A stretch of DNA of 64,000 nt, from assembly GCF_003018255.1 (NCBI RefSeq), contig NZ_CP027440.1; one strand, 5' to 3'. Position numbers and translations under genes: made by a program. The notes beneath the pieces were generated by a model, which had not been told where the DNA came from, did no database searches, and saw only the letters and a list, made by a program, of their open reading frames with translations. This document shows positions 5,242-49,674 of the stretch, in pieces (position 1 is the first letter of the stretch; each line of letters starts with the position of its first letter). Source of the DNA: Escherichia coli. Its GTDB lineage: Bacteria; Pseudomonadota; Gammaproteobacteria; Enterobacterales; Enterobacteriaceae.

Positions 5242-5393
5242 TACTAATCTTCCTTTTTCTTTTTATTCCTCCTTAGTATGCCACCAGGAAGTGTGATTAC
5301 GGTTGCAAAAACGGCAAATTGCTTGTTTTATGGCACATTAACGGGGTTTTTGCTGAAAAAATGCGCGGTCAGAAAATTATTTTAAATTTCCTC

Positions 5394-5421
5394 TTGTCAG
5401 GCCGGAATAACTCCCTATAAT
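5394..5421 (+). promoter_or_regulatory. rRNA operon P1 promoter (-35 TTGTCA, 16-bp spacer, -10 TATAAT) preceded by an AT-rich UP element
   Basis: ttgtcaggccggaataactccctataat read directly; AT-rich tract agaaaattattttaaatttcc immediately upstream. Confidence 0.85.
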
Positions 5422-5512
5422 GCGCCACCACTGACACGGAACAACGGCAAACACGCCGCCGGGTTAGCGGGGTTCTCCTGAGAATTCCGGCAGAGAAAGC
5501 AAAAACAAATGC

Positions 5513-5540
5513 TTGACTCTGTAGCGGGAAAGCGTATTAT
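5513..5540 (+). promoter_or_regulatory. rRNA operon P2 promoter (-35 TTGACT, -10 TATTAT); boxA-like antitermination element follows at about 5580-5600
   Basis: ttgactctgtagcgggaaagcgtattat read directly; tgctctttaacaatttatca downstream. Confidence 0.8.
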
Positions 5541-5722
5541 GCACACCCCGCGCCGCTGAGAAAAAAGCGAAGCGGCACTGCTCTTTAACAATTTATCAGA
5601 CAATCTGTGTGGGCACTCGAAGATACGGATTCTTAACGTCGCAAGACGAAAAATGAATACCAAGTCTCAAGAGTGAACACGTAATTCATTACGAAGTTTA
5701 ATTCTTTGAGCATCAAACTTTT

Positions 5723-7264
<1,542 letters not shown>

Positions 7265-7349
7265 CCTTAAAGAAGCGTACTTTGCAGTGCTCACACAGAT
7301 TGTCTGATAGAAAGTGAAAAGCAAGGCGTCTTGCGAAGCAGACTGATAC

Positions 7350-7425
7350 GTCCCCTTCGTCTAGAGGCCCAGGACACCGCCCTTTCACGGCGGTAACAGG
7401 GGTTCGAATCCCCTAGGGGACGCCA
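7350..7425 (+). tRNA. gltU: tRNA-Glu in the 16S-23S spacer
   Basis: GTCCCCTTCGTCTAGAGGCCCAGGACACCGCCCTTTCACGGCGGTAACAGGGGTTCGAATCCCCTAGGGGACGCCA. Confidence 0.95.
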
Positions 7426-7609
7426 CTTGCTGGTTTGTGAGTGAAAGTCACCTGCCTTAATATCTCAAAACTCATCTTCGGGTGATGTTTGAGATATTTG
7501 CTCTTTAAAAATCTGGATCAAGCTGAAAATTGAAACACTGAACAACGAAAGTTGTTCGTGAGTCTCTCAAATTTTCGCAACTCTGAAGTGAAACATCTTC
7601 GGGTTGTGA

Positions 7610-10515
<2,906 letters not shown>

Positions 10516-10612
10516 ACAACGCCGAAGATGTTTTGGCGGATGAGAGAAGATTTTCAGCCTGATACAGATTAAATCGACATGTCATAACGAGACGTGTTGA
10601 TAAAACAGAATT

Positions 10613-10732
10613 TGCCTGGCGGCCTTAGCGCGGTGGTCCCACCTGACCCCATGCCGAACTCAGAAGTGAAACGCCGTAGCGCCGATGGTAGTGTGGGGTC
10701 TCCCCATGCGAGAGTAGGGAACTGCCAGGCAT
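10613..10732 (+). rRNA. rrfC: 5S ribosomal RNA
   Basis: TGCCTGGCGGCC...GGGAACTGCCAGGCAT, 120 nt. Confidence 0.95.
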
Positions 10733-10784
10733 CAAATTAAGCAGTAAGCCGGTCATAAAACCGGTGGTTGTAAAAGAATTCGGT

Positions 10785-10861
10785 GGAGCGGTAGTTCAGT
10801 CGGTTAGAATACCTGCCTGTCACGCAGGGGGTCGCGGGTTCGAGTCCCGTCCGTTCCGCCA
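10785..10861 (+). tRNA. aspT: tRNA-Asp
   Basis: GGAGCGGTAGTTCAGTCGGTTAGAATACCTGCCTGTCACGCAGGGGGTCGCGGGTTCGAGTCCCGTCCGTTCCGCCA. Confidence 0.95.
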
Positions 10862-10869
10862 CCCTAATT

Positions 10870-10945
10870 AGGGGCGTAGTTCAATTGGTAGAGCACCGGT
10901 CTCCAAAACCGGGTGTTGGGAGTTCGAGTCTCTCCGCCCCTGCCA
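10870..10945 (+). tRNA. trpT: tRNA-Trp
   Basis: AGGGGCGTAGTTCAATTGGTAGAGCACCGGTCTCCAAAACCGGGTGTTGGGAGTTCGAGTCTCTCCGCCCCTGCCA. Confidence 0.95.
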
Positions 10946-10980
10946 GAAATCATCCTTAGCGAAAGCTAAGGATTTTTTTT
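10946..10980 (+). terminator. rRNA operon rho-independent terminator
   Basis: Hairpin catccttagcgaaagctaaggat followed by a T run. Confidence 0.8.
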
Positions 10981-11039
10981 ATCTGAAATAACCTCTCCGA
11001 AGTAAATCCTTCTACCGGCATCCTTGCCAGCCATTCAGA

Positions 11040-12364: not shown

Positions 12365-13882
12365 TGTCAGTAGTTTTTGCAGATGGATGAGCAAACGGTC
12401 AATCGCACGATAGCTAACTGCCTCCTGCAAATGCTGACGTGTGATAATGTCAGACTGATCAATATCAGCAATGGTTCGTGCAACTTTCAATAACCGCTGC
12501 CAGGCACGAATCGATAACCCCAGATGGATCAGCGTTTCTTCCAGCCACTGCGCATCTTCGCTCTCAAGCTTGCAGAATTGGCGTATTTCCGGATTATCCA
12601 GCCAGGCGTTCAGTTTATTCTGCCGCTTAAATTGGCGCTCTCTGGCGGCCATTACACGTTGTTTAACGGTGGTGCTGTTTTCTCCCTGCACTACCGTTTT
12701 ACTCAAAATGCCGGGGGGCGGTAATGGGATCTCTAGTGAGAGATCGAAGCGGTCGAGAAAGGGCCCCGAGAGCCGGTTGAGATAACGTAATGTCTGTTCT
12801 GGTGTGCAGCGGTTATGGTTTCCCTGATAATGTCCGGTAGGGCTGGGATTCATCGCCGCAACAAGTTGGAAACGGGCTGGATAGGTTATTTTTGCTCGTG
12901 TGCGTGAAAGATGGATCTGCCCGGATTCAATCGGCTCTCGCAAGGCATCCAGTGTACGCCGTTCAAATTCAGGTAGCTCATCAAGAAAAAGCACGCCGTT
13001 ATGCGCCAGCGAAATTTCACCTGGCCCTGGAATTGCACCACCGCCCACCATCGCAGTTAACGACGCACTGTGATGAGGTGAGCGGAATGGGCGCTGCCGC
13101 CATTGTTTTTGTACTGATTCAGCATTTACCAGACTTAATATCGCAGCGCTCTCCAGTGCCTCTTCATTGCTTAAATCTGGCAACAGGCCATTAATACGGC
13201 TGGCGAGCATTGTTTTACCTGTTCCCGGCGGCCCAATCAGTAAAAGGTTGTGCCCGCCAGCGGCGGTAATTTCCAGTCCTCGCTTTCCTTGCTCCTGACC
13301 GACAACATCACTGAGATCATGTTGTAGCGCCCGGGATACTGCATCAGTTGGTTTCGGGCGTTCGAGAGCGTGCTTACCCTCCAGAAACGCACAGACAGCC
13401 TGCAGATGATCGGCTATCAGGCATCCTTCACCGTTAATTAGCCCCACTTCATCCTCGTTATCTTTCGCGACGATAATTTTTCTGCCCGACTTAATGGCTT
13501 CAGTTGCACTGGAGATTGCGCCGGGAACGCCACGCAGAGCGCCTGTAAGCGCCAGTTCTCCGACTAATTCATATTCATCTAACTTATTGGCTGTAAGCTG
13601 TTCTGAGGCCGCCAGTAACGCAATAGCGATAGGCAAATCATATCGTCCCCCTTCTTTTGGCAGATCGGCTGGAGCAAGGTTGATGGTGATTTTTTTCGCC
13701 GGATATTCATATCCGCTATTGATAATGGCGCTGCGCACGCGATCGCGAGCTTCTTTTACCGTTGTTTCTGGTAAGCCCACCATCGTTAAGCCTGGTAGAC
13801 CTTTACTGATATGTACCTCAACAGTGATTGGGGGCGCATTTACTCCCAGGGCTGCGCGGGTATGAACAATTGACAGTGACAT
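12362..13882 (-). CDS. comM: Mg-chelatase-like AAA+ ATPase ComM (YifB)
   Basis: ORF 12362..13912; Walker A GPPGTGKT; 506 aa from internal start MSLSIVHTRAALGV. Confidence 0.9.
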   Translation of the reverse strand: MSLSIVHTRAALGVNAPPITVEVHISKGLPGLTMVGLPETTVKEARDRVRSAIINSGYEYPAKKITINLAPADLPKEGGRYDLPIAIALLAASEQLTANKLDEYELVGELALTGALRGVPGAISSATEAIKSGRKIIVAKDNEDEVGLINGEGCLIADHLQAVCAFLEGKHALERPKPTDAVSRALQHDLSDVVGQEQGKRGLEITAAGGHNLLLIGPPGTGKTMLASRINGLLPDLSNEEALESAAILSLVNAESVQKQWRQRPFRSPHHSASLTAMVGGGAIPGPGEISLAHNGVLFLDELPEFERRTLDALREPIESGQIHLSRTRAKITYPARFQLVAAMNPSPTGHYQGNHNRCTPEQTLRYLNRLSGPFLDRFDLSLEIPLPPPGILSKTVVQGENSTTVKQRVMAARERQFKRQNKLNAWLDNPEIRQFCKLESEDAQWLEETLIHLGLSIRAWQRLLKVARTIADIDQSDIITRQHLQEAVSYRAIDRLLIHLQKLLT

Positions 13883-14234
13883 AAGCCCTCCTTGAGTCAC
13901 CATTATGTGCATAAGATATCGCTGCTGTAGCCCGCTAATTCGTGAATTTTAGTGGCTGATTCCTGTTTATTTGTGCAAGTGAAGTTGAGTTGTTCTGGCG
14001 GTGGAATGATGCTCGCAAAAATGCAGCGGGCAAAGGATGAACTACGAGGAAGGGAACAACATTCATACTGAAATTGAATTTTTTTCACTCACTATTTTCT
14101 TTTTAAAAAACAACAATTTCTCTTGAAATTATTAAAGACATCATAAAAATCGGCCAAAAAATATCTTGTGCTATTCGCAAAATCTATGGTAACTCTTTAG
14201 GCATTCCTTCGAACAAGATGCAAGAAAAGACAAA

Positions 14235-29453: not shown

Positions 29454-30713
29454 ATGAATCTTACCGAATTAAAGAATACGCCGGTTTCTGAGCTGATCAC
29501 TCTCGGCGAAAATATGGGGCTGGAAAACCTGGCTCGTATGCGTAAGCAGGACATTATTTTTGCCATCCTGAAGCAGCACGCAAAGAGTGGCGAAGATATC
29601 TTTGGTGATGGTGTACTGGAGATATTGCAGGATGGATTTGGTTTCCTCCGTTCCGCAGACAGCTCCTACCTCGCCGGTCCTGATGACATCTACGTTTCCC
29701 CTAGCCAAATCCGCCGTTTCAACCTCCGCACTGGTGATACCATCTCTGGTAAGATTCGCCCGCCGAAAGAAGGTGAACGCTATTTTGCGCTGCTGAAAGT
29801 TAACGAAGTTAACTTCGACAAACCTGAAAACGCCCGCAACAAAATCCTCTTTGAGAACTTAACCCCGCTGCACGCAAACTCTCGTCTGCGTATGGAACGT
29901 GGTAACGGTTCTACTGAAGATTTAACCGCTCGCGTACTGGATCTGGCATCACCTATCGGTCGTGGTCAGCGTGGTCTGATTGTGGCACCGCCGAAAGCCG
30001 GTAAAACCATGCTGCTGCAGAACATTGCTCAGAGCATTGCTTACAACCACCCGGATTGTGTGCTGATGGTTCTGCTGATCGACGAACGTCCGGAAGAAGT
30101 AACCGAGATGCAGCGTCTGGTAAAAGGTGAAGTTGTTGCTTCTACCTTTGACGAACCAGCATCTCGCCACGTTCAGGTCGCGGAAATGGTGATCGAGAAG
30201 GCGAAACGCCTTGTTGAGCACAAGAAAGACGTTATCATCCTGCTCGACTCCATCACTCGTCTGGCGCGCGCTTACAACACCGTTGTTCCGGCGTCAGGTA
30301 AAGTGCTGACCGGTGGTGTGGATGCCAACGCCCTGCATCGTCCGAAACGCTTCTTCGGTGCGGCGCGTAACGTGGAAGAGGGCGGCAGCCTGACCATCAT
30401 CGCTACCGCGCTTATCGATACCGGTTCCAAGATGGACGAAGTTATCTACGAAGAGTTTAAAGGTACAGGCAACATGGAACTGCACCTCTCTCGTAAGATC
30501 GCTGAAAAACGCGTCTTCCCGGCAATCGACTACAACCGTTCCGGTACCCGTAAAGAAGAGCTGCTCACTACTCAGGAAGAACTGCAGAAAATGTGGATCC
30601 TGCGCAAAATCATTCACCCGATGGGCGAAATCGATGCAATGGAATTCCTCATTAATAAACTGGCAATGACCAAGACCAATGACGATTTCTTCGAAATGAT
30701 GAAACGCTCATAA
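29454..30713 (+). CDS. rho: transcription termination factor Rho
   Basis: ORF 29382..30713; 419 aa from [22 protein letters not shown]; P-loop [10 protein letters not shown]. Confidence 0.97.
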
Positions 30714-30725
30714 ATTTGTCTTATG

Positions 30726-45994: not shown

Positions 45995-47230
45995 ATGCTG
46001 CAACAGGTTCCAACGCGTGCTTTTCATGTGATGGCGAAACCGAGCGGTTCCGATTGTAATCTGAACTGTGACTACTGTTTTTATCTCGAAAAACAATCCC
46101 TTTACCGCGAAAAGCCAGTCACGCATATGGACGATGACACGCTGGAAGCGTATGTCCGTCACTATATCGCTGCCAGCGAAACCCAAAACGAAGTGGCTTT
46201 TACCTGGCAGGGCGGCGAACCAACGTTACTCGGGCTGGATTTTTACCGCCGTGCCGTGGCGCTACAGGCGAAATATGGTGCTGGCAGGAAGATAAGTAAC
46301 AGCTTCCAGACTAACGGCGTGCTGCTTGATGACGAATGGTGTGCATTTCTGGCAGAAAATCATTTTCTTGTAGGGTTATCGCTGGATGGTCCGGCTGAGA
46401 TCCACAATCAATATCGCGTGACCAAAGGTGGCAGACCAACGCATAAGCTGGTGATGCGTGCTCTGACGCTCCTGCAAAAACATCATGTCGACTATAACGT
46501 GCTGGTCTGCGTCAATCGCACCAGTGCGTTACAACCTTTGCAAGTCTATGATTTTCTGTGTGATGCAGGTGTTGAGTTCATCCAGTTTATTCCGGTGGTC
46601 GAGCGCCTGGCTGATGAAACGGCTGCTCATGCTGGACTTAAGCTACATGCTCCCGGCGATATTCAGGGCGAACTGACGGAATGGTCGGTGTGCCCGCAAG
46701 AGTTCGGTGAGTTTCTGGTGGCGATTTTCGACCACTGGATTAAGCGCGACGTCGGCAAGGTTTTCGTAATGAATATCGAATGGGCGTTCGCCAATTTTGT
46801 CGGCGCACCGGGCGCGGTTTGCCATCATCAGCCAACCTGTGGGCGCTCGGTGATTGTTGAACACAACGGCGATGTTTACGCCTGCGATCACTATGTTTAT
46901 CCGCAGTATCGACTAGGGAATATGCTTCAGCAGACGATTGCAGAAATGATTGATTCCCCGCAACAGCAGGCATTTGGTGAAGATAAATTCAAGCAGTTAC
47001 CGGCACAGTGTCGCAGTTGCAACGTGTTAAAAGCGTGCTGGGGAGGCTGCCCGAAACACCGCTTTATGCTCGATGCCAGCGGCAAACCCGGGCTGAATTA
47101 TTTGTGTGCCGGGTATCAGCGTTATTTCCGCCATCTACCGCCATATCTTAAAGCAATGGCTGATTTGCTGGCGCACGGTCGTCCGGCCAGCGACATTATG
47201 CAGGCGCATTTGATGGTGGTGAATAAGTAG
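45995..47230 (+). CDS. aslB: anaerobic sulfatase-maturating enzyme (radical SAM)
   Basis: ORF 45965..47230; 411 aa from MLQQVPTRAFHVMAKP; radical-SAM CNLNCDYC motif plus C-terminal Cys clusters. Confidence 0.92.
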   Translation: MLQQVPTRAFHVMAKPSGSDCNLNCDYCFYLEKQSLYREKPVTHMDDDTLEAYVRHYIAASETQNEVAFTWQGGEPTLLGLDFYRRAVALQAKYGAGRKISNSFQTNGVLLDDEWCAFLAENHFLVGLSLDGPAEIHNQYRVTKGGRPTHKLVMRALTLLQKHHVDYNVLVCVNRTSALQPLQVYDFLCDAGVEFIQFIPVVERLADETAAHAGLKLHAPGDIQGELTEWSVCPQEFGEFLVAIFDHWIKRDVGKVFVMNIEWAFANFVGAPGAVCHHQPTCGRSVIVEHNGDVYACDHYVYPQYRLGNMLQQTIAEMIDSPQQQAFGEDKFKQLPAQCRSCNVLKACWGGCPKHRFMLDASGKPGLNYLCAGYQRYFRHLPPYLKAMADLLAHGRPASDIMQAHLMVVNK

Positions 47231-47232
47231 AA

Positions 47233-47387
47233 ATCGGCGGCCGCCTGCGGTTGATTGCCGGATGCGGCGTGAACGCCTTATCCGGCCTACAATCATTGCA
47301 AATTCAATAAATTGCAGCGTTCTGTAGGCTGGATAAGATGCGTCAGCATCGCATCCGGCAAAGGCAGATCTCAGCGATAGCGCCGGC
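47233..47387. repeat. REP/BIME palindromic elements between aslB and aslA
   Basis: gccggatgcggcgtgaacgccttatccggcctac and inverted copy gtaggctggataagatgcgtcagcatcgcatccggca. Confidence 0.85.
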
Positions 47388-49043
47388 TTAGTCAGATTTA
47401 ATCTGCGCGCGTGGTGGATATTTTTTCAGGATCTCCATATACGCGTGCATTTCGGTCTGTAGCGGTACACCCATCGGAATATGGCGCACGCCGATAGAGT
47501 CGCTTTCCTGCGGATCGGTGTACAGGTTAAACACCGACGATCCCGCCGTTTGCATTACTGTGCCGGTGAATCCACCCTGATATCCGCTCTGGGTATAAGC
47601 GTAAGGTTGCTGAATCAGGACGTGATACTTGAACTCATCCATACGCACAGCAGAAAGTTTACCGTTGAGGAAGTAGTGCTCGGCCTTACGGTTAGACTGA
47701 CCATTTGTTCCCAGGAAGAAAGATGTCTGGTCCACACCATCGATAAAGGTGGTTTTCGGTACTAAATTCGCTACTTTCGCCCCAGGATGCCCCGCCAGAT
47801 CCAGCGCCGTAGGGAAGAGATCCGCCAGATCGACAATGCCGTCAGATTTACGCGGTTGGATCATGCCTTTCCAGTAAACGAAGGTTGGCACACGAACGCC
47901 GCCTTCCCATGTAGAACCTTTCGCACCGCGGAACGGCGTGCGACCGTGCGGCGGAACTTCGGCTTCCGGACCGTTATCAGAGGTGAACACAATCAGCGTG
48001 TTATCAAGCTGACCGTTTTTCTCCAGTGCTTTATACAGATTGGCGAAGATATCGTTCATCTCCACCATGCAGTCGCCGTAAGAGGTGCGCGCCGGAGAGC
48101 TACCCGCATATTTGGCGTTCGGGTAGTTATCGAAGTGACAGCCGCGAGTGCCGTAATAGAGGAAGAAAGGCTTATCACTCTTCGCCATCTTGTCGAGGAA
48201 CTTAACGCCATATTCCATCCAGCGTTGATCCAGGTCTTCCATATATTTCGGCGTAATGTCGGCAATGGCTTCCTGTTCACCGCCGCGCACGGCATGAACG
48301 TCATCTTTGCTAAACGGCAGTTTTTGGATGTATTCAGAACGAGCCGGGCTCAGGGCGACTTCCGGGTTGACATGAACATCACGCCATTCGGTATACATAT
48401 CGGACACCGAGTTAAAGCCGCGGAAATCATCAAAGCCAACGTTCTGCGGCTGCGACTCTTTGTTTTCCCCCATATGCCATTTCCCGATGGCCTGGGTGAC
48501 GTAGCCCTGATCATGCAGCAACTGCGGCAGCGTGGTTAACCCTTGCAGACCGCCCGGTTGCCCGTACATTGGCGGCATCAGAATGCCGTGGTGGATGGAG
48601 TATTGTCCGGTAAGAATCGTGGCGCGGGTTGGGGAAGAACTCGGTTGAGAATACGCCGAAGTTAAAATCAGCCCCTGGCTGGCAACGGCGTCGATATCTG
48701 GTGTAGGGTTACCCACCGCCACGCCGCCGCCGTTAAAGCCAACATCCATCCAGCCCACATCATCCAGCAAGAAAACAACCACGTTCGGTTTCTTACCGGT
48801 TTTTTTCTCAAGTTCTGCCAGCTTCTGCTGGGTTTCTTTGTCTTGTGCAGGATGCTGCATCACCGGCATCATGTTGTCGGCAATAGTGGTCGCCGGTTTA
48901 ACCAGATACTGGTTTGGGTGATCGTATCCGGCAAAGCCTTTGCGTGCGGTGGCGGTTGACGGGGTATCTGCTGCGCTGGCTATGAGAGGAAGAGCTGCGG
49001 CGACAGCAACAACAAGAAGTTTGGGTGAAAACGAAAATTCCAT
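47388..49043 (-). CDS. aslA: arylsulfatase-like protein AslA
   Basis: 551-aa ORF with signal peptide and sulfatase (C/S)xPxR-type signature ([11 protein letters not shown]). Confidence 0.92.
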
Positions 49044-49467
49044 GCAAAATGCTCCGGTTTCATGTCGTCAAAATGATGACGTAATTAAGCATTGATAATT
49101 GAGATCCCTCTCCCTGACAGGATGATTGCATAAATAATAGTGATAAAAATAAATTATTTATTTATCCAGAAAATGAATTGAAAAATCAGGAGAGCATTTT
49201 CAATCCTACCTCTGGCGCAGGTGATATGTAAGGCGGTGATGTTATATCGCTTTGATTATTGATGCTGTTTTTAGTTTTAACGGCAATTAATATATATGTT
49301 ATTAATTGAATGACTTTTATTATTCATTATATATATGTGTAGAATTGTGCGCAGGAGAAATATTCACTCAGGAAGTTATTACTCAGGAAGCAAAGAGGAT
49401 TACAGAATTATCTCATAACAAGTGTTAAGGGATGTTATTTCCCGGTTCTCTGTGGCATAATAAACGA

Positions 49468-49674
49468 GTAGATGCTCATTCCATCTCTTATGTTCGCCTT
49501 AGTGCCTCATAAACTCCGGAATGACGCAGAGCCGTTTACGGTGCTTATCGTCCACTGACAGATGTCGCTTATGCCTCATCAGACACCATGGACACAACGT
49601 TGAGTGAAGCACCCACTTGTTGTCATACAGACCTGTTTTAACGCCTGCTCCGTAATAAGAGCAGGCGTTTTTTT
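49468..49674 (+). ncRNA. glmZ: sRNA GlmZ
   Basis: Recognised from memory of the K-12 sequence: GTAGATGCTCATTCCATCTCTTATGTTCGCC...; ends in terminator cgcctgctccgtaataagagcaggcgttttttt. Confidence 0.85.

What the first reader, a model, noticed from the sequence alone, without database searches (positions are those of the whole stretch)
49080..49460. Strongly AT-rich tract with short direct repeats upstream of aslA and glmZ
A stretch of about 380 bp is conspicuously AT-rich by eye, with runs such as aataaattatttatttatcc and ttaatatatatgttattaattg and the near-tandem repeat actcaggaag(ttatt)actcaggaag. It lies between the divergent aslA and glmZ starts. Curved, AT-rich DNA like this often binds nucleoid proteins (H-NS, Fis, IHF) and may set glmZ or aslA expression. 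It is probably native regulatory DNA rather than foreign.
Basis: seen in the sequence. Interest (0 to 1): 0.2.

Follow-up and report, generated by a model that had tools for sequence, protein, structure and literature searches.

The report
AT-rich aslA–glmZ spacer of E. coli
This AT-rich stretch is the ordinary, already-studied spacer between the E. coli sulfatase gene aslA and the small RNA gene glmZ: it most likely carries the aslA promoter and leader, is reported to bind the silencer H-NS, and is not needed for glmZ expression.

Summary
Window 49080-49460 has 32% G+C against 52% for the window and is the most AT-rich 381-nt stretch in the 64 kb. It lies in the 424-bp spacer between aslA (minus strand, ATG at 49043) and glmZ (plus strand, +1 at 49468). 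The spacer is present in 5425 of 5426 complete E. coli genomes.

Published work covers most of the interpretation. E. coli glmZ has one constitutive sigma70 promoter, found here at 49432-49461. DNA upstream of -40 is dispensable, and GlrR does not bind the -424..+32 fragment. Genomic SELEX lists the spacer as binding both RNA polymerase and H-NS.

New here:
- The tract belongs to a ~3.5-kb aslB-aslA cassette whose right edge is about -70 of glmZ.
- All 11 aslA loci, in 4 genera, share one promoter-like motif on the aslA strand (yTTACA-N18-TAnnAT; window 49232-49203). It predicts a ~150-nt AT-rich leader.
- That leader has a 5'-terminal long-range helix kept in architecture across genera (post-hoc combined p ~0.001).

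The 10-nt repeat is an E. coli-only 15-bp duplication. One unit is lost in 176 of 5426 genomes. There is no phased A-tract signal.

Verdict: ordinary regulatory DNA, already known, low interest.

The parts
47388..49043 (-). aslA coding sequence (arylsulfatase, 551 aa); context gene whose 5' region is the tract
   Evidence: ORF list; RefSeq annotation of matching E. coli loci
49044..49467 (.). aslA-glmZ intergenic spacer, 424 bp, G+C 0.328
   Evidence: The length equals the -424..+1 fragment used by Goepel et al.
49046..49064 (-). aslA ribosome-binding region (GGAG at 49052-49055); invariant block across six Escherichia genomes
49064..49080 (-). Small palindrome or hairpin GTCATCA-TTT-TGACGAC just upstream of the aslA Shine-Dalgarno sequence
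   Evidence: 91% of cells paired, one compensatory pair, not significant (92 of 500 shuffles reach the observed score). Hairpins of other sequence sit at the same place in Pseudocitrobacter and Superficieibacter (read by eye)
49108..49117 (-). 3' arm (UCAGGGAGAG) of the predicted long-range helix of the aslA leader
   Evidence: In the MFE or centroid folds of the four other Escherichia leaders; the window allele was not folded in that call. Conserved block
49147..49161 (.). Invariant AT-only block AAATAAATTATTTAT inside the leader loop; candidate H-NS contact region (inferred)
   Evidence: Conserved block, 15 of 15 invariant against a neutral rate of 0.30
49186..49195 (-). 5' arm (GCUCUCCUGA) of the predicted long-range helix; begins about 8 nt after the candidate -10
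49203..49232 (-). Candidate aslA sigma70 promoter: -35 CTTACA (49232-49227), 18-nt spacer, -10 TAGGAT (49208-49203); predicted start near 49197
   Evidence: Exactly one yTTACA-N18-TAnnAT in each of 11 aslA loci from 4 genera, 101-159 nt upstream of the ATG. Only the hexamer columns are invariant. Expected 0.0048 per shuffled spacer. No transcription-start data were found
49233..49326 (.). AT-rich region upstream of the candidate aslA promoter. Includes the block TTGATTATTGATGCTGTTTTT (49252-49272), nearly invariant in Escherichia (2 variable positions) and similar in Pseudocitrobacter
49327..49395 (.). Variable linker, the least conserved part of the spacer within Escherichia (10-50% invariant per bin)
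49366..49390 (+). 15-bp unit ACTCAGGAAGTTATT in 1.67 copies (10-mers at 49366-75 and 49381-90; -102 and -87 of glmZ)
   Evidence: Exact in K-12. Absent as a repeat in E. albertii, E. whittamii, E69 and E1V33. One unit is deleted in strain IR53017 and in 176 of 5426 complete genomes. No 3-copy allele
49398..49431 (+). Right edge of the aslB-aslA cassette, about -70 of glmZ, followed by the ACAGAAT..TCT block shared with taxa that lack aslA
   Evidence: Superficieibacter pair: homology resumes at -70; multi-genus alignment
49432..49461 (+). Published glmZ sigma70 promoter ATGTTA-N15-tggCATAAT (extended -10)
   Evidence: Exact match to the motif given by Goepel et al., who verified it by mutation in K-12
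49468..49674 (+). glmZ small RNA with intrinsic terminator (stem 49640-49669)
   Evidence: Rfam RF00083, 218.4 bits, full length; terminator scan

Best explanation
The tract is the 5' regulatory region of aslA and lies back to back with the short, self-sufficient glmZ promoter. Read from the aslA side it has five parts. (1) 49044-~49197 is a ~150-nt AT-rich aslA leader. (2) 49203-49232 is a sigma70-type aslA promoter. (3) 49233-~49326 is AT-rich upstream DNA. (4) 49327-49395 is a freely evolving linker that holds the 15-bp duplication. (5) From about 49398 onward is the glmZ promoter region. The AT-rich DNA binds H-NS; this is shown in vitro by others. H-NS probably keeps aslA weakly expressed until it is counteracted; this step is inferred. 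glmZ transcription does not depend on the tract; this was shown by others in K-12. The whole tract travels with the aslB-aslA cassette rather than with glmZ.
For: Identity and position. Composition. H-NS and RNA polymerase holoenzyme binding to this spacer in genomic SELEX: PMC3946193. glmZ independence: PMC3045617 reports that DNA upstream of -40 is dispensable, that GlrR does not bind -424..+32, and that rpoN and glrR deletions have no effect. The published promoter is present unchanged at 49432-49461. No GlrR motif (TGTCN10GACA) at up to 2 mismatches, against 2.3 expected. Purifying selection: the spacer is 60% invariant against 30% at aslA fourfold sites, with discrete conserved blocks. 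Candidate aslA promoter: one yTTACA-N18-TAnnAT per locus in 11 loci of 4 genera, hexamers invariant and spacer diverged, chance expectation 0.0048. Leader helix starting 7-9 nt after the -10 in 8 of 9 MFE folds and in the ninth centroid, with a different sequence in each genus; duplex energies against shuffles give a combined p of 0.0013. Linkage to aslA: every aslA-bearing locus has an AT-rich spacer (100-nt bins of 0.15-0.30 G+C), and aslA-lacking loci do not. In the Superficieibacter pair the 3483-nt cassette ends at -70 of glmZ.
Against: No transcription-start, ChIP or hns-mutant data for aslA could be retrieved, so the promoter, the leader and the silencing are all inferred. Shimada et al. 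predicted a different best-match aslA promoter, TTAACA-18-TGTAAT, on the minus strand at 49428-49399. The simple promoter scan did not flag my candidate, which matches 8 of 12 consensus positions with an 18-nt spacer. The H-NS nucleation motif TCGATAAATT is not enriched: 1 hit at up to 2 mismatches against 1.5 expected. The leader-helix statistic was designed after seeing the pattern, and single-lineage p values are 0.02-0.28. The glmZ deletion series was done on plasmids under laboratory conditions, so a chromosomal or condition-specific influence is not excluded.
Confidence: 0.7

Rival explanations
1. The tract is an upstream regulatory region of glmZ, an enhancer or nucleoid-protein platform that sets glmZ transcription, as in the GlrR/sigma54/IHF-controlled glmY and glmZ promoters of other Enterobacteriaceae.
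For: It lies directly upstream of glmZ. In Citrobacter sp., Kosakonia, Enterobacter and Phytobacter the equivalent positions (-150 and -213) carry TGTCN10GACA GlrR sites and a TGGCAC -24 element.
Against: Published 5' deletions show that everything upstream of -40 is dispensable. GlrR does not bind the full spacer, and glrR and rpoN deletions have no effect. There are no GlrR hits at up to 2 mismatches, no exact IHF site and no intact sigma54 -24/-12. Homology with aslA-lacking taxa stops at about -70. Natural alleles with an IS1 at 49324/5 or with one repeat unit deleted exist.
Confidence: 0.07
2. The tract is functionless spacer DNA whose AT-richness reflects mutation bias in unconstrained non-coding sequence.
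For: The linker 49327-49395 evolves at or above the neutral proxy (10-50% invariant). Within E. coli the tract is only 90-95% identical to the window in 3628 of 5422 genomes. Insertions and deletions are tolerated. The spacer is used as an insertion site for engineered cassettes (PMC13069688).
Against: Overall the spacer is twice as conserved as aslA fourfold sites across the genus, and it contains 15-26-nt invariant blocks (P of at least 14 of 15 invariant under the neutral rate is about 6e-7 per window). Promoter hexamers are conserved across four genera. The spacer binds RNA polymerase and H-NS in vitro.
Confidence: 0.1
3. The tract is the AT-rich edge of horizontally acquired DNA (an aslB-aslA islet next to the proM tRNA gene), and H-NS binds it as a xenogeneic silencer.
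For: The aslB-aslA cassette sits between the argX-hisR-leuT-proM tRNA operon terminator and -70 of glmZ in Escherichia, Kluyvera, Pseudocitrobacter and Superficieibacter electus. It is absent from Citrobacter, Kosakonia, Raoultella, Yokenella and Superficieibacter sp. 1612, with clean junctions. The locus is unusually diverged between this strain and K-12, at 84-97% per 200 nt.
Against: aslA and aslB have ordinary composition: G+C 0.53 and 0.515, GC3 0.59 and 0.55, like hemY. No integrase or mobility genes lie in the cassette. It is fixed in E. coli (5425 of 5426 genomes) and in all five Escherichia species sampled. AslA identity across genera (82-92%) is similar to or a little lower than that of flanking YifK and HemY, which fits old vertical descent with losses.
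Confidence: 0.1
4. The tract hides an unannotated small gene (a small protein or a small RNA).
For: ORFs of 40 aa (49306-49428, TTG start) and 27 aa (49335-49418) exist on the plus strand. RNA polymerase binds the spacer in SELEX.
Against: No Rfam family matches 49044-49467 at E up to 1 on either strand. The ORFs lie in the least conserved segment, which has 1-3-nt indels between Escherichia species. One ORF loses 5 codons in 176 genomes.
Confidence: 0.03

Closest known systems
H-NS-bound AT-rich divergent promoter spacers of E. coli (the 'type-A spacers with HNS mark' of Shimada et al. 2014)
   Same: Strong AT-richness and many TpA steps, between divergent genes. This very spacer is listed as binding both RpoD holoenzyme and H-NS in genomic SELEX.
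   Different: No in vivo H-NS occupancy or derepression data for aslA were found. The high-affinity nucleation motif is not enriched and there is no phased A-tract curvature.
GlrR (QseF)/sigma54/IHF-dependent glmY and glmZ promoters of Enterobacteriaceae (Goepel et al. 2011)
   Same: Same sRNA gene and same position upstream. Relatives without aslA carry GlrR sites at -150 and -213 and a sigma54 -24 element.
   Different: E. coli has none of these motifs. Its glmZ promoter is the published sigma70-only type ATGTTA-N15-tggCATAAT. The DNA upstream of about -70 is unrelated and belongs to the aslA cassette.
5'-terminal stem-loops that stabilise E. coli mRNAs (for example the ompA 5' UTR; from my own knowledge: Emory, Bouvet and Belasco 1992)
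   Same: The predicted aslA leader begins with a helix within a few nucleotides of the predicted 5' end, in all four genera.
   Different: Here the helix is long-range and closes a 50-75-nt AT-rich loop. The transcription start is only predicted, and no stability data exist.
Short tandem duplications in non-coding DNA that vary in copy number by slippage
   Same: A 15-bp unit in 1.67 copies. An exact one-unit deletion allele occurs in 3.2% of complete E. coli genomes.
   Different: Only two states were seen (no 3-copy allele). Other Escherichia species have the same length with diverged sequence, so the repeat was not created by a recent insertion.

Membership tests
H-NS-bound silenced promoter region | A+T content well above the genome average over at least 100-200 bp | tested here: met
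   G+C 0.32-0.33 against 0.52; the lowest in the 64-kb window
H-NS-bound silenced promoter region | Demonstrated H-NS binding | not testable with these tools
   Published genomic SELEX marks the aslA<>glmZ spacer 'HNS' (PMC3946193). No ChIP table with aslA could be retrieved
H-NS-bound silenced promoter region | Derepression of the adjacent gene in an hns mutant | not testable with these tools
   No data found in the searchable literature
H-NS-bound silenced promoter region | High-affinity nucleation motif TCGATAAATT | tested here: not met
   1 hit at up to 2 mismatches against 1.5 expected. The degenerate form gives 7 against 4.0 (12% of shuffles reach this)
Intrinsically curved DNA (phased A-tracts) | AA/TT periodicity of 10-11 bp | tested here: not met
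   Power in the 10-11.25-bp band is reached by 88% of shuffles
GlrR/sigma54-dependent glmZ promoter | GlrR binding sites TGTCN10GACA upstream | tested here: not met
   0 hits at up to 2 mismatches against 2.3 expected. Published EMSA is negative for -424..+32
GlrR/sigma54-dependent glmZ promoter | Sigma54 -24/-12 element (TGGCAC-N5-TTGCW) at the start site | tested here: not met
   None at the glmZ start. The best match in the spacer (49115-49130) lacks the GG of the -24 element
GlrR/sigma54-dependent glmZ promoter | IHF sites WATCAANNNNTTR between enhancer and promoter | tested here: not met
   0 exact hits. 4 hits at 1 mismatch against 1.55 expected, none between -150 and -40
Sigma70-only glmZ promoter (Escherichia type) | ATGTTA-N15-tggCATAAT ending 6 nt before +1 | tested here: met
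   Exact match at 49432-49461; motif as published
Conserved direct-repeat transcription-factor site | Both repeat copies conserved in related species | tested here: not met
   Repeat absent in four other Escherichia species. One copy is missing in 176 of 5426 E. coli genomes
tRNA-linked genomic islet | Presence or absence between related taxa at identical junctions next to a tRNA gene | tested here: met
tRNA-linked genomic islet | Atypical composition and mobility genes | tested here: not met
   aslA and aslB G+C 0.53 and 0.515, like their neighbours. aslB and aslA are the only real genes of 150 aa or more between proM and glmZ; the one other ORF that long (47787-48539, +) lies inside aslA on the opposite strand
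Known RNA family in the spacer | Match to an Rfam covariance model | tested here: not met
   No hit in 49044-49467 at E up to 1 on either strand

The most novel reading that the evidence does not exclude
About 150 nt of the AT-rich tract is transcribed as a structured aslA leader from a previously unmapped promoter (49232-49203). In this reading a 5'-terminal long-range helix, maintained by different sequences in Escherichia, Kluyvera, Pseudocitrobacter and Superficieibacter, encloses an AT-rich loop. That loop would be a post-transcriptional control element of sulfatase expression, acting on mRNA stability or on access to the ribosome-binding site. Its DNA form would be the H-NS target.
Probability: 0.3. 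Interest if true: 0.3.

Novelty: already known. Interest (0 to 1): 0.15.

Why it matters
It matters little beyond housekeeping. The analysis confirms that a conspicuous composition dip is the well-studied aslA-glmZ spacer. It also corrects the idea that this DNA tunes glmZ. Two small leads may be useful to specialists. The first is a phylogenetically supported candidate promoter and structured leader for aslA, a gene implicated in E. coli K1 invasion whose regulation is essentially undescribed. The second is that the DNA upstream of about -70 of the sigma70-only glmZ promoter belongs to an aslB-aslA cassette. That explains why Goepel et al. could not align the Escherichia glmZ upstream region with that of most other Enterobacteriaceae.

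Tried and rejected
- Motif scans for GlrR, sigma54, IHF, Fis and the H-NS nucleation motif: none was enriched over dinucleotide shuffles.
- Consensus promoter and terminator scan: 2 promoter-like sites against 2.1 expected. It missed the published glmZ promoter, so it is uninformative here.
- Curvature via AA/TT periodicity: negative.
- Small ORFs: not conserved.
- Rfam at a permissive threshold: only glmZ in the spacer region.
- A third copy of ACTCAGGAAG at 30570 lies inside the rho coding sequence and is chance.
- The leader palindrome at 49064-49080: covariation is not significant.
- A 9-nt complementarity between 49192-49200 and the ribosome-binding region 49046-49054: at chance level by my own estimate (about 1 such pair expected in the spacer) and mismatched in K-12.
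- A G+C-rich dyad inside the candidate promoter spacer: its register is inconsistent between species (read by eye), so it was dropped.
- H-NS ChIP and transcription-start data: supplements were not held or the papers were not available. Literature searches for aslA with H-NS, ChIP or SELEX returned only the Shimada paper.
- The idea that the aslBA insertion caused the loss of GlrR control was softened. Raoultella and Enterobacter sp. JUb54 lack both aslBA and GlrR sites.

Full report
**1. What is at the coordinates**

The window around the finding is the E. coli chromosome segment yifK, argX-hisR-leuT-proM, aslB, aslA, glmZ, hemYXDC.
- aslA is on the minus strand, with its ATG at 49043.
- glmZ is a full-length match to Rfam RF00083 at 49468-49674 (218 bits).
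- The finding therefore lies inside the 424-bp aslA-glmZ spacer, 49044-49467.
- An 801-nt query around it matches 5425 of 5426 complete E. coli genomes, once per genome as a rule.

**2. Check of the observation**

- G+C is 0.320 for 49080-49460 and 0.328 for the spacer. The window as a whole is 0.522.
- The lowest 381-nt window of the entire 64 kb starts at 49058. No other non-coding spacer in the window is below 0.40.
- The repeat is two exact 10-mers 15 nt apart. It is mildly unusual: 1.3% of shuffles reach it for near-tandem spacing and 14% for any spacing.
- A third copy of the 10-mer in the window lies inside the rho coding sequence and is chance.
- The word 'curved' does not hold up. AA/TT dinucleotides show no helical periodicity. 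The tract is rich in TpA steps.

**3. What is already published**

Goepel et al. 2011 (PMC3045617) studied exactly this spacer in K-12.
- E. coli glmZ has a single, constitutive sigma70 promoter, ATGTTA-N15-tggCATAAT.
- 5' deletions show that DNA upstream of -40 is dispensable.
- GlrR does not bind the -424..+32 fragment, and glrR and rpoN deletions have no effect.
- That promoter is present unchanged at 49432-49461.

Shimada et al. 2014 (PMC3946193) list the aslA<>glmZ spacer among divergent spacers that bind RpoD holoenzyme in genomic SELEX. They mark it as containing an H-NS binding site.

Another laboratory uses the spacer as a chromosomal site for inserting engineered cassettes.

My motif scans agree: no GlrR site even at 2 mismatches, no exact IHF site and no intact sigma54 element.

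**4. The tract belongs to aslA, not to glmZ**

A scan of species-representative genomes with a glmZ pattern gave 44 loci. They fall into two arrangements.

Without aslBA, glmZ follows the proM tRNA terminator directly.
- Upstream G+C is mostly ordinary (about 0.4-0.57 per 100-nt bin).
- Many taxa keep GlrR sites at -150 and -213 and a TGGCAC -24 element.

With aslB-aslA between proM and glmZ:
- The taxa are six Escherichia genomes of five species, three Kluyvera, Pseudocitrobacter and Superficieibacter electus.
- Every locus has an AT-rich spacer (100-nt bins of 0.15-0.30) and none has GlrR motifs.

Sequence similarity between the two arrangements stops about 70 nt upstream of glmZ. The cleanest case is within one genus.
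- S. electus carries a 3483-nt segment: aslB, aslA and the AT-rich tract.
- Superficieibacter sp. 1612 has 97 unrelated nucleotides in its place.
- The left junction is just after the proM terminator. The right junction is at -70 of glmZ.

Loss of GlrR control is not tied only to this cassette. Raoultella and Enterobacter sp. JUb54 lack both.

The cassette genes have ordinary composition, and the arrangement is fixed in Escherichia. 'Native' is therefore right at genus level, although the cassette is an indel at family level.

**5. Anatomy from conservation**

Across six Escherichia genomes the spacer is 60% invariant, against 30% at aslA fourfold-degenerate sites. The invariant blocks are:
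- 49046-49064, the ribosome-binding region;
- 49078-49103;
- 49147-49161;
- 49198-49212;
- 49425-49442, the glmZ -35 region.

The least conserved part is 49327-49395, which contains the repeat.

Across all 11 aslA loci the only conserved upstream elements besides the ribosome-binding site are two hexamers on the aslA strand, yTTACA and TAnnAT.
- They are 18 nt apart and lie 101-159 nt upstream of the ATG.
- The 18 nt between them are fully diverged.
- The chance expectation is 0.0048 per spacer.
- In the window this is CTTACA (49232-49227) and TAGGAT (49208-49203).

I take this as the aslA promoter. It predicts a start near 49197 and a ~150-nt leader. This is inference: no start-site data were retrievable. 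Shimada's best-match prediction is a different site, 49428-49399.

**6. A possible structured leader**

Nine predicted leaders were folded; the window allele was not among them in that call.
- In eight, the minimum-free-energy structure contains a helix that starts 7-9 nt after the -10 and pairs with a segment 35-90 nt downstream.
- In the ninth, the helix appears in the centroid structure.
- The helix has a different sequence in each lineage:

| Lineage | 5' arm | 3' arm |
|---|---|---|
| Escherichia | GCUCUCCUGA | UCAGGGAGAG |
| Superficieibacter | CGAGCG | CGCUCG |
| Kluyvera (two species) | GCUGYUCA | UGAGCAGC |
| K. georgiana | CAGGUGAAU | AUUCACCUG |
| Pseudocitrobacter | GCGCAUGA | UUAUGCGC |

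- Duplex energies against shuffled downstream sequence give p values of 0.10, 0.028, 0.019, 0.037 and 0.28. The Fisher combination is 0.0013.
- The test was designed after seeing the pattern and rests on a predicted start, so it is a lead and not a result.
- The window arms are 49186-49195 and 49108-49117.
- A small palindrome next to the Shine-Dalgarno sequence (49064-49080) shows one compensatory change but no significant covariation.
- No Rfam family matches the spacer.

**7. The direct repeat**

- It is identical in K-12 but is not a repeat in E. albertii, E. whittamii, E69 or E1V33, which have the same length there.
- Strain IR53017 lacks exactly one 15-bp unit.
- That single-copy allele is in 176 of 5426 complete genomes. 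No three-copy allele was found.
- It behaves as a short duplication in a weakly constrained linker, not as a conserved pair of binding sites.

**8. Natural disruptions**

- IS1 sits at the aslA start in strain NT1F10 and inside the tract at 49324/5 in strain FLI21.
- aslA is reduced to a 138-nt remnant in strains 00-3076 and M15, with the spacer retained.
- The tract is 90-95% identical to the window in two thirds of E. coli genomes.
- The whole aslBA locus is unusually diverged from K-12.

**9. Verdict**

It is the known aslA-glmZ spacer. Its likely role is the aslA promoter, leader and H-NS target, with no role in glmZ transcription. Novelty is low. The promoter and leader model for aslA and the cassette boundary at -70 are modest new leads.

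Noticed in passing
window 46300-48900 (aslB-aslA): The aslB-aslA locus is unusually diverged between this strain and K-12: 84.5-97% identity per 200 nt against mostly 96-100% in hemYXD. In about 1700 genomes a 381-nt aslA query is matched over less than 80% of its length by megablast.
   Followed up: partly
window 47199-47387: Several overlapping sub-threshold Rfam matches to naRNA4/CssrE and ES036/CssrF (REP-like repeats) lie in the convergent aslB-aslA spacer (G+C 0.55).
   Followed up: no
L034 (NZ_VLXZ01000176.1, 279 nt): A 279-nt contig at 1.5x coverage in an Alkalicoccobacillus porphyridii assembly carries the E. coli glmZ promoter, both repeat copies and the glmZ 5' end. It is almost certainly E. 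coli contamination.
   Followed up: partly
L047 (NT1F10) and L053 (FLI21); window 49031-49041 and 49324/5: There are independent IS1 insertions. One sits at the aslA start codon with a duplicated target. The other sits inside the AT-rich tract 143 nt upstream of glmZ, with the aslA side displaced.
   Followed up: partly
L050 (strain 00-3076) and L051 (strain M15): aslA is annotated as a 138-nt pseudogene remnant while the aslA-glmZ spacer is intact. These strains also carry A-to-G at -1 of glmZ and length changes in the T-run at about 49268.
   Followed up: no
L003, L007, L010, L013, L020, L030, L043 (Citrobacter freundii-group loci): These loci keep a sigma54-like TGGCA-N..-TGCA element overlapping the glmZ -10. 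They have no TGTCN10GACA sites, and the proM terminator lies only about 150 nt upstream. This looks like a possible orphan sigma54 promoter without its enhancer.
   Followed up: no
window 49192-49200 and 49046-49054: In this strain a 9-nt exact complementarity links the predicted 5' end of the aslA leader (AAAAUGCUC) to the ribosome-binding region (GAGCAUUUU). K-12 and three other Escherichia species have a mismatch. By my own estimate about one such pair is expected by chance in the spacer.
   Followed up: partly
window 49220-49250 and 49340-49360: Clustered substitutions separate two E. coli haplotypes (GGCGGTGATGTT against GGCAGGTTTATT; GAATTGTGCGCAGGAG against GGATCAAGCTCAGGTT). The K-12 form of the first cluster matches other Escherichia species. 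The window's form is therefore derived and may reflect a multi-base event or recombination.
   Followed up: no
window 5242-11039: This is a 5.8-kb stretch without a long ORF at ordinary G+C (0.52). It is probably a ribosomal RNA operon, but that was not checked.
   Followed up: no
window 13786-14081 and 30580-30716: These are the two other G+C troughs of the window (minima 0.367 and 0.378). The second is the 3' end of rho and its downstream spacer.
   Followed up: no
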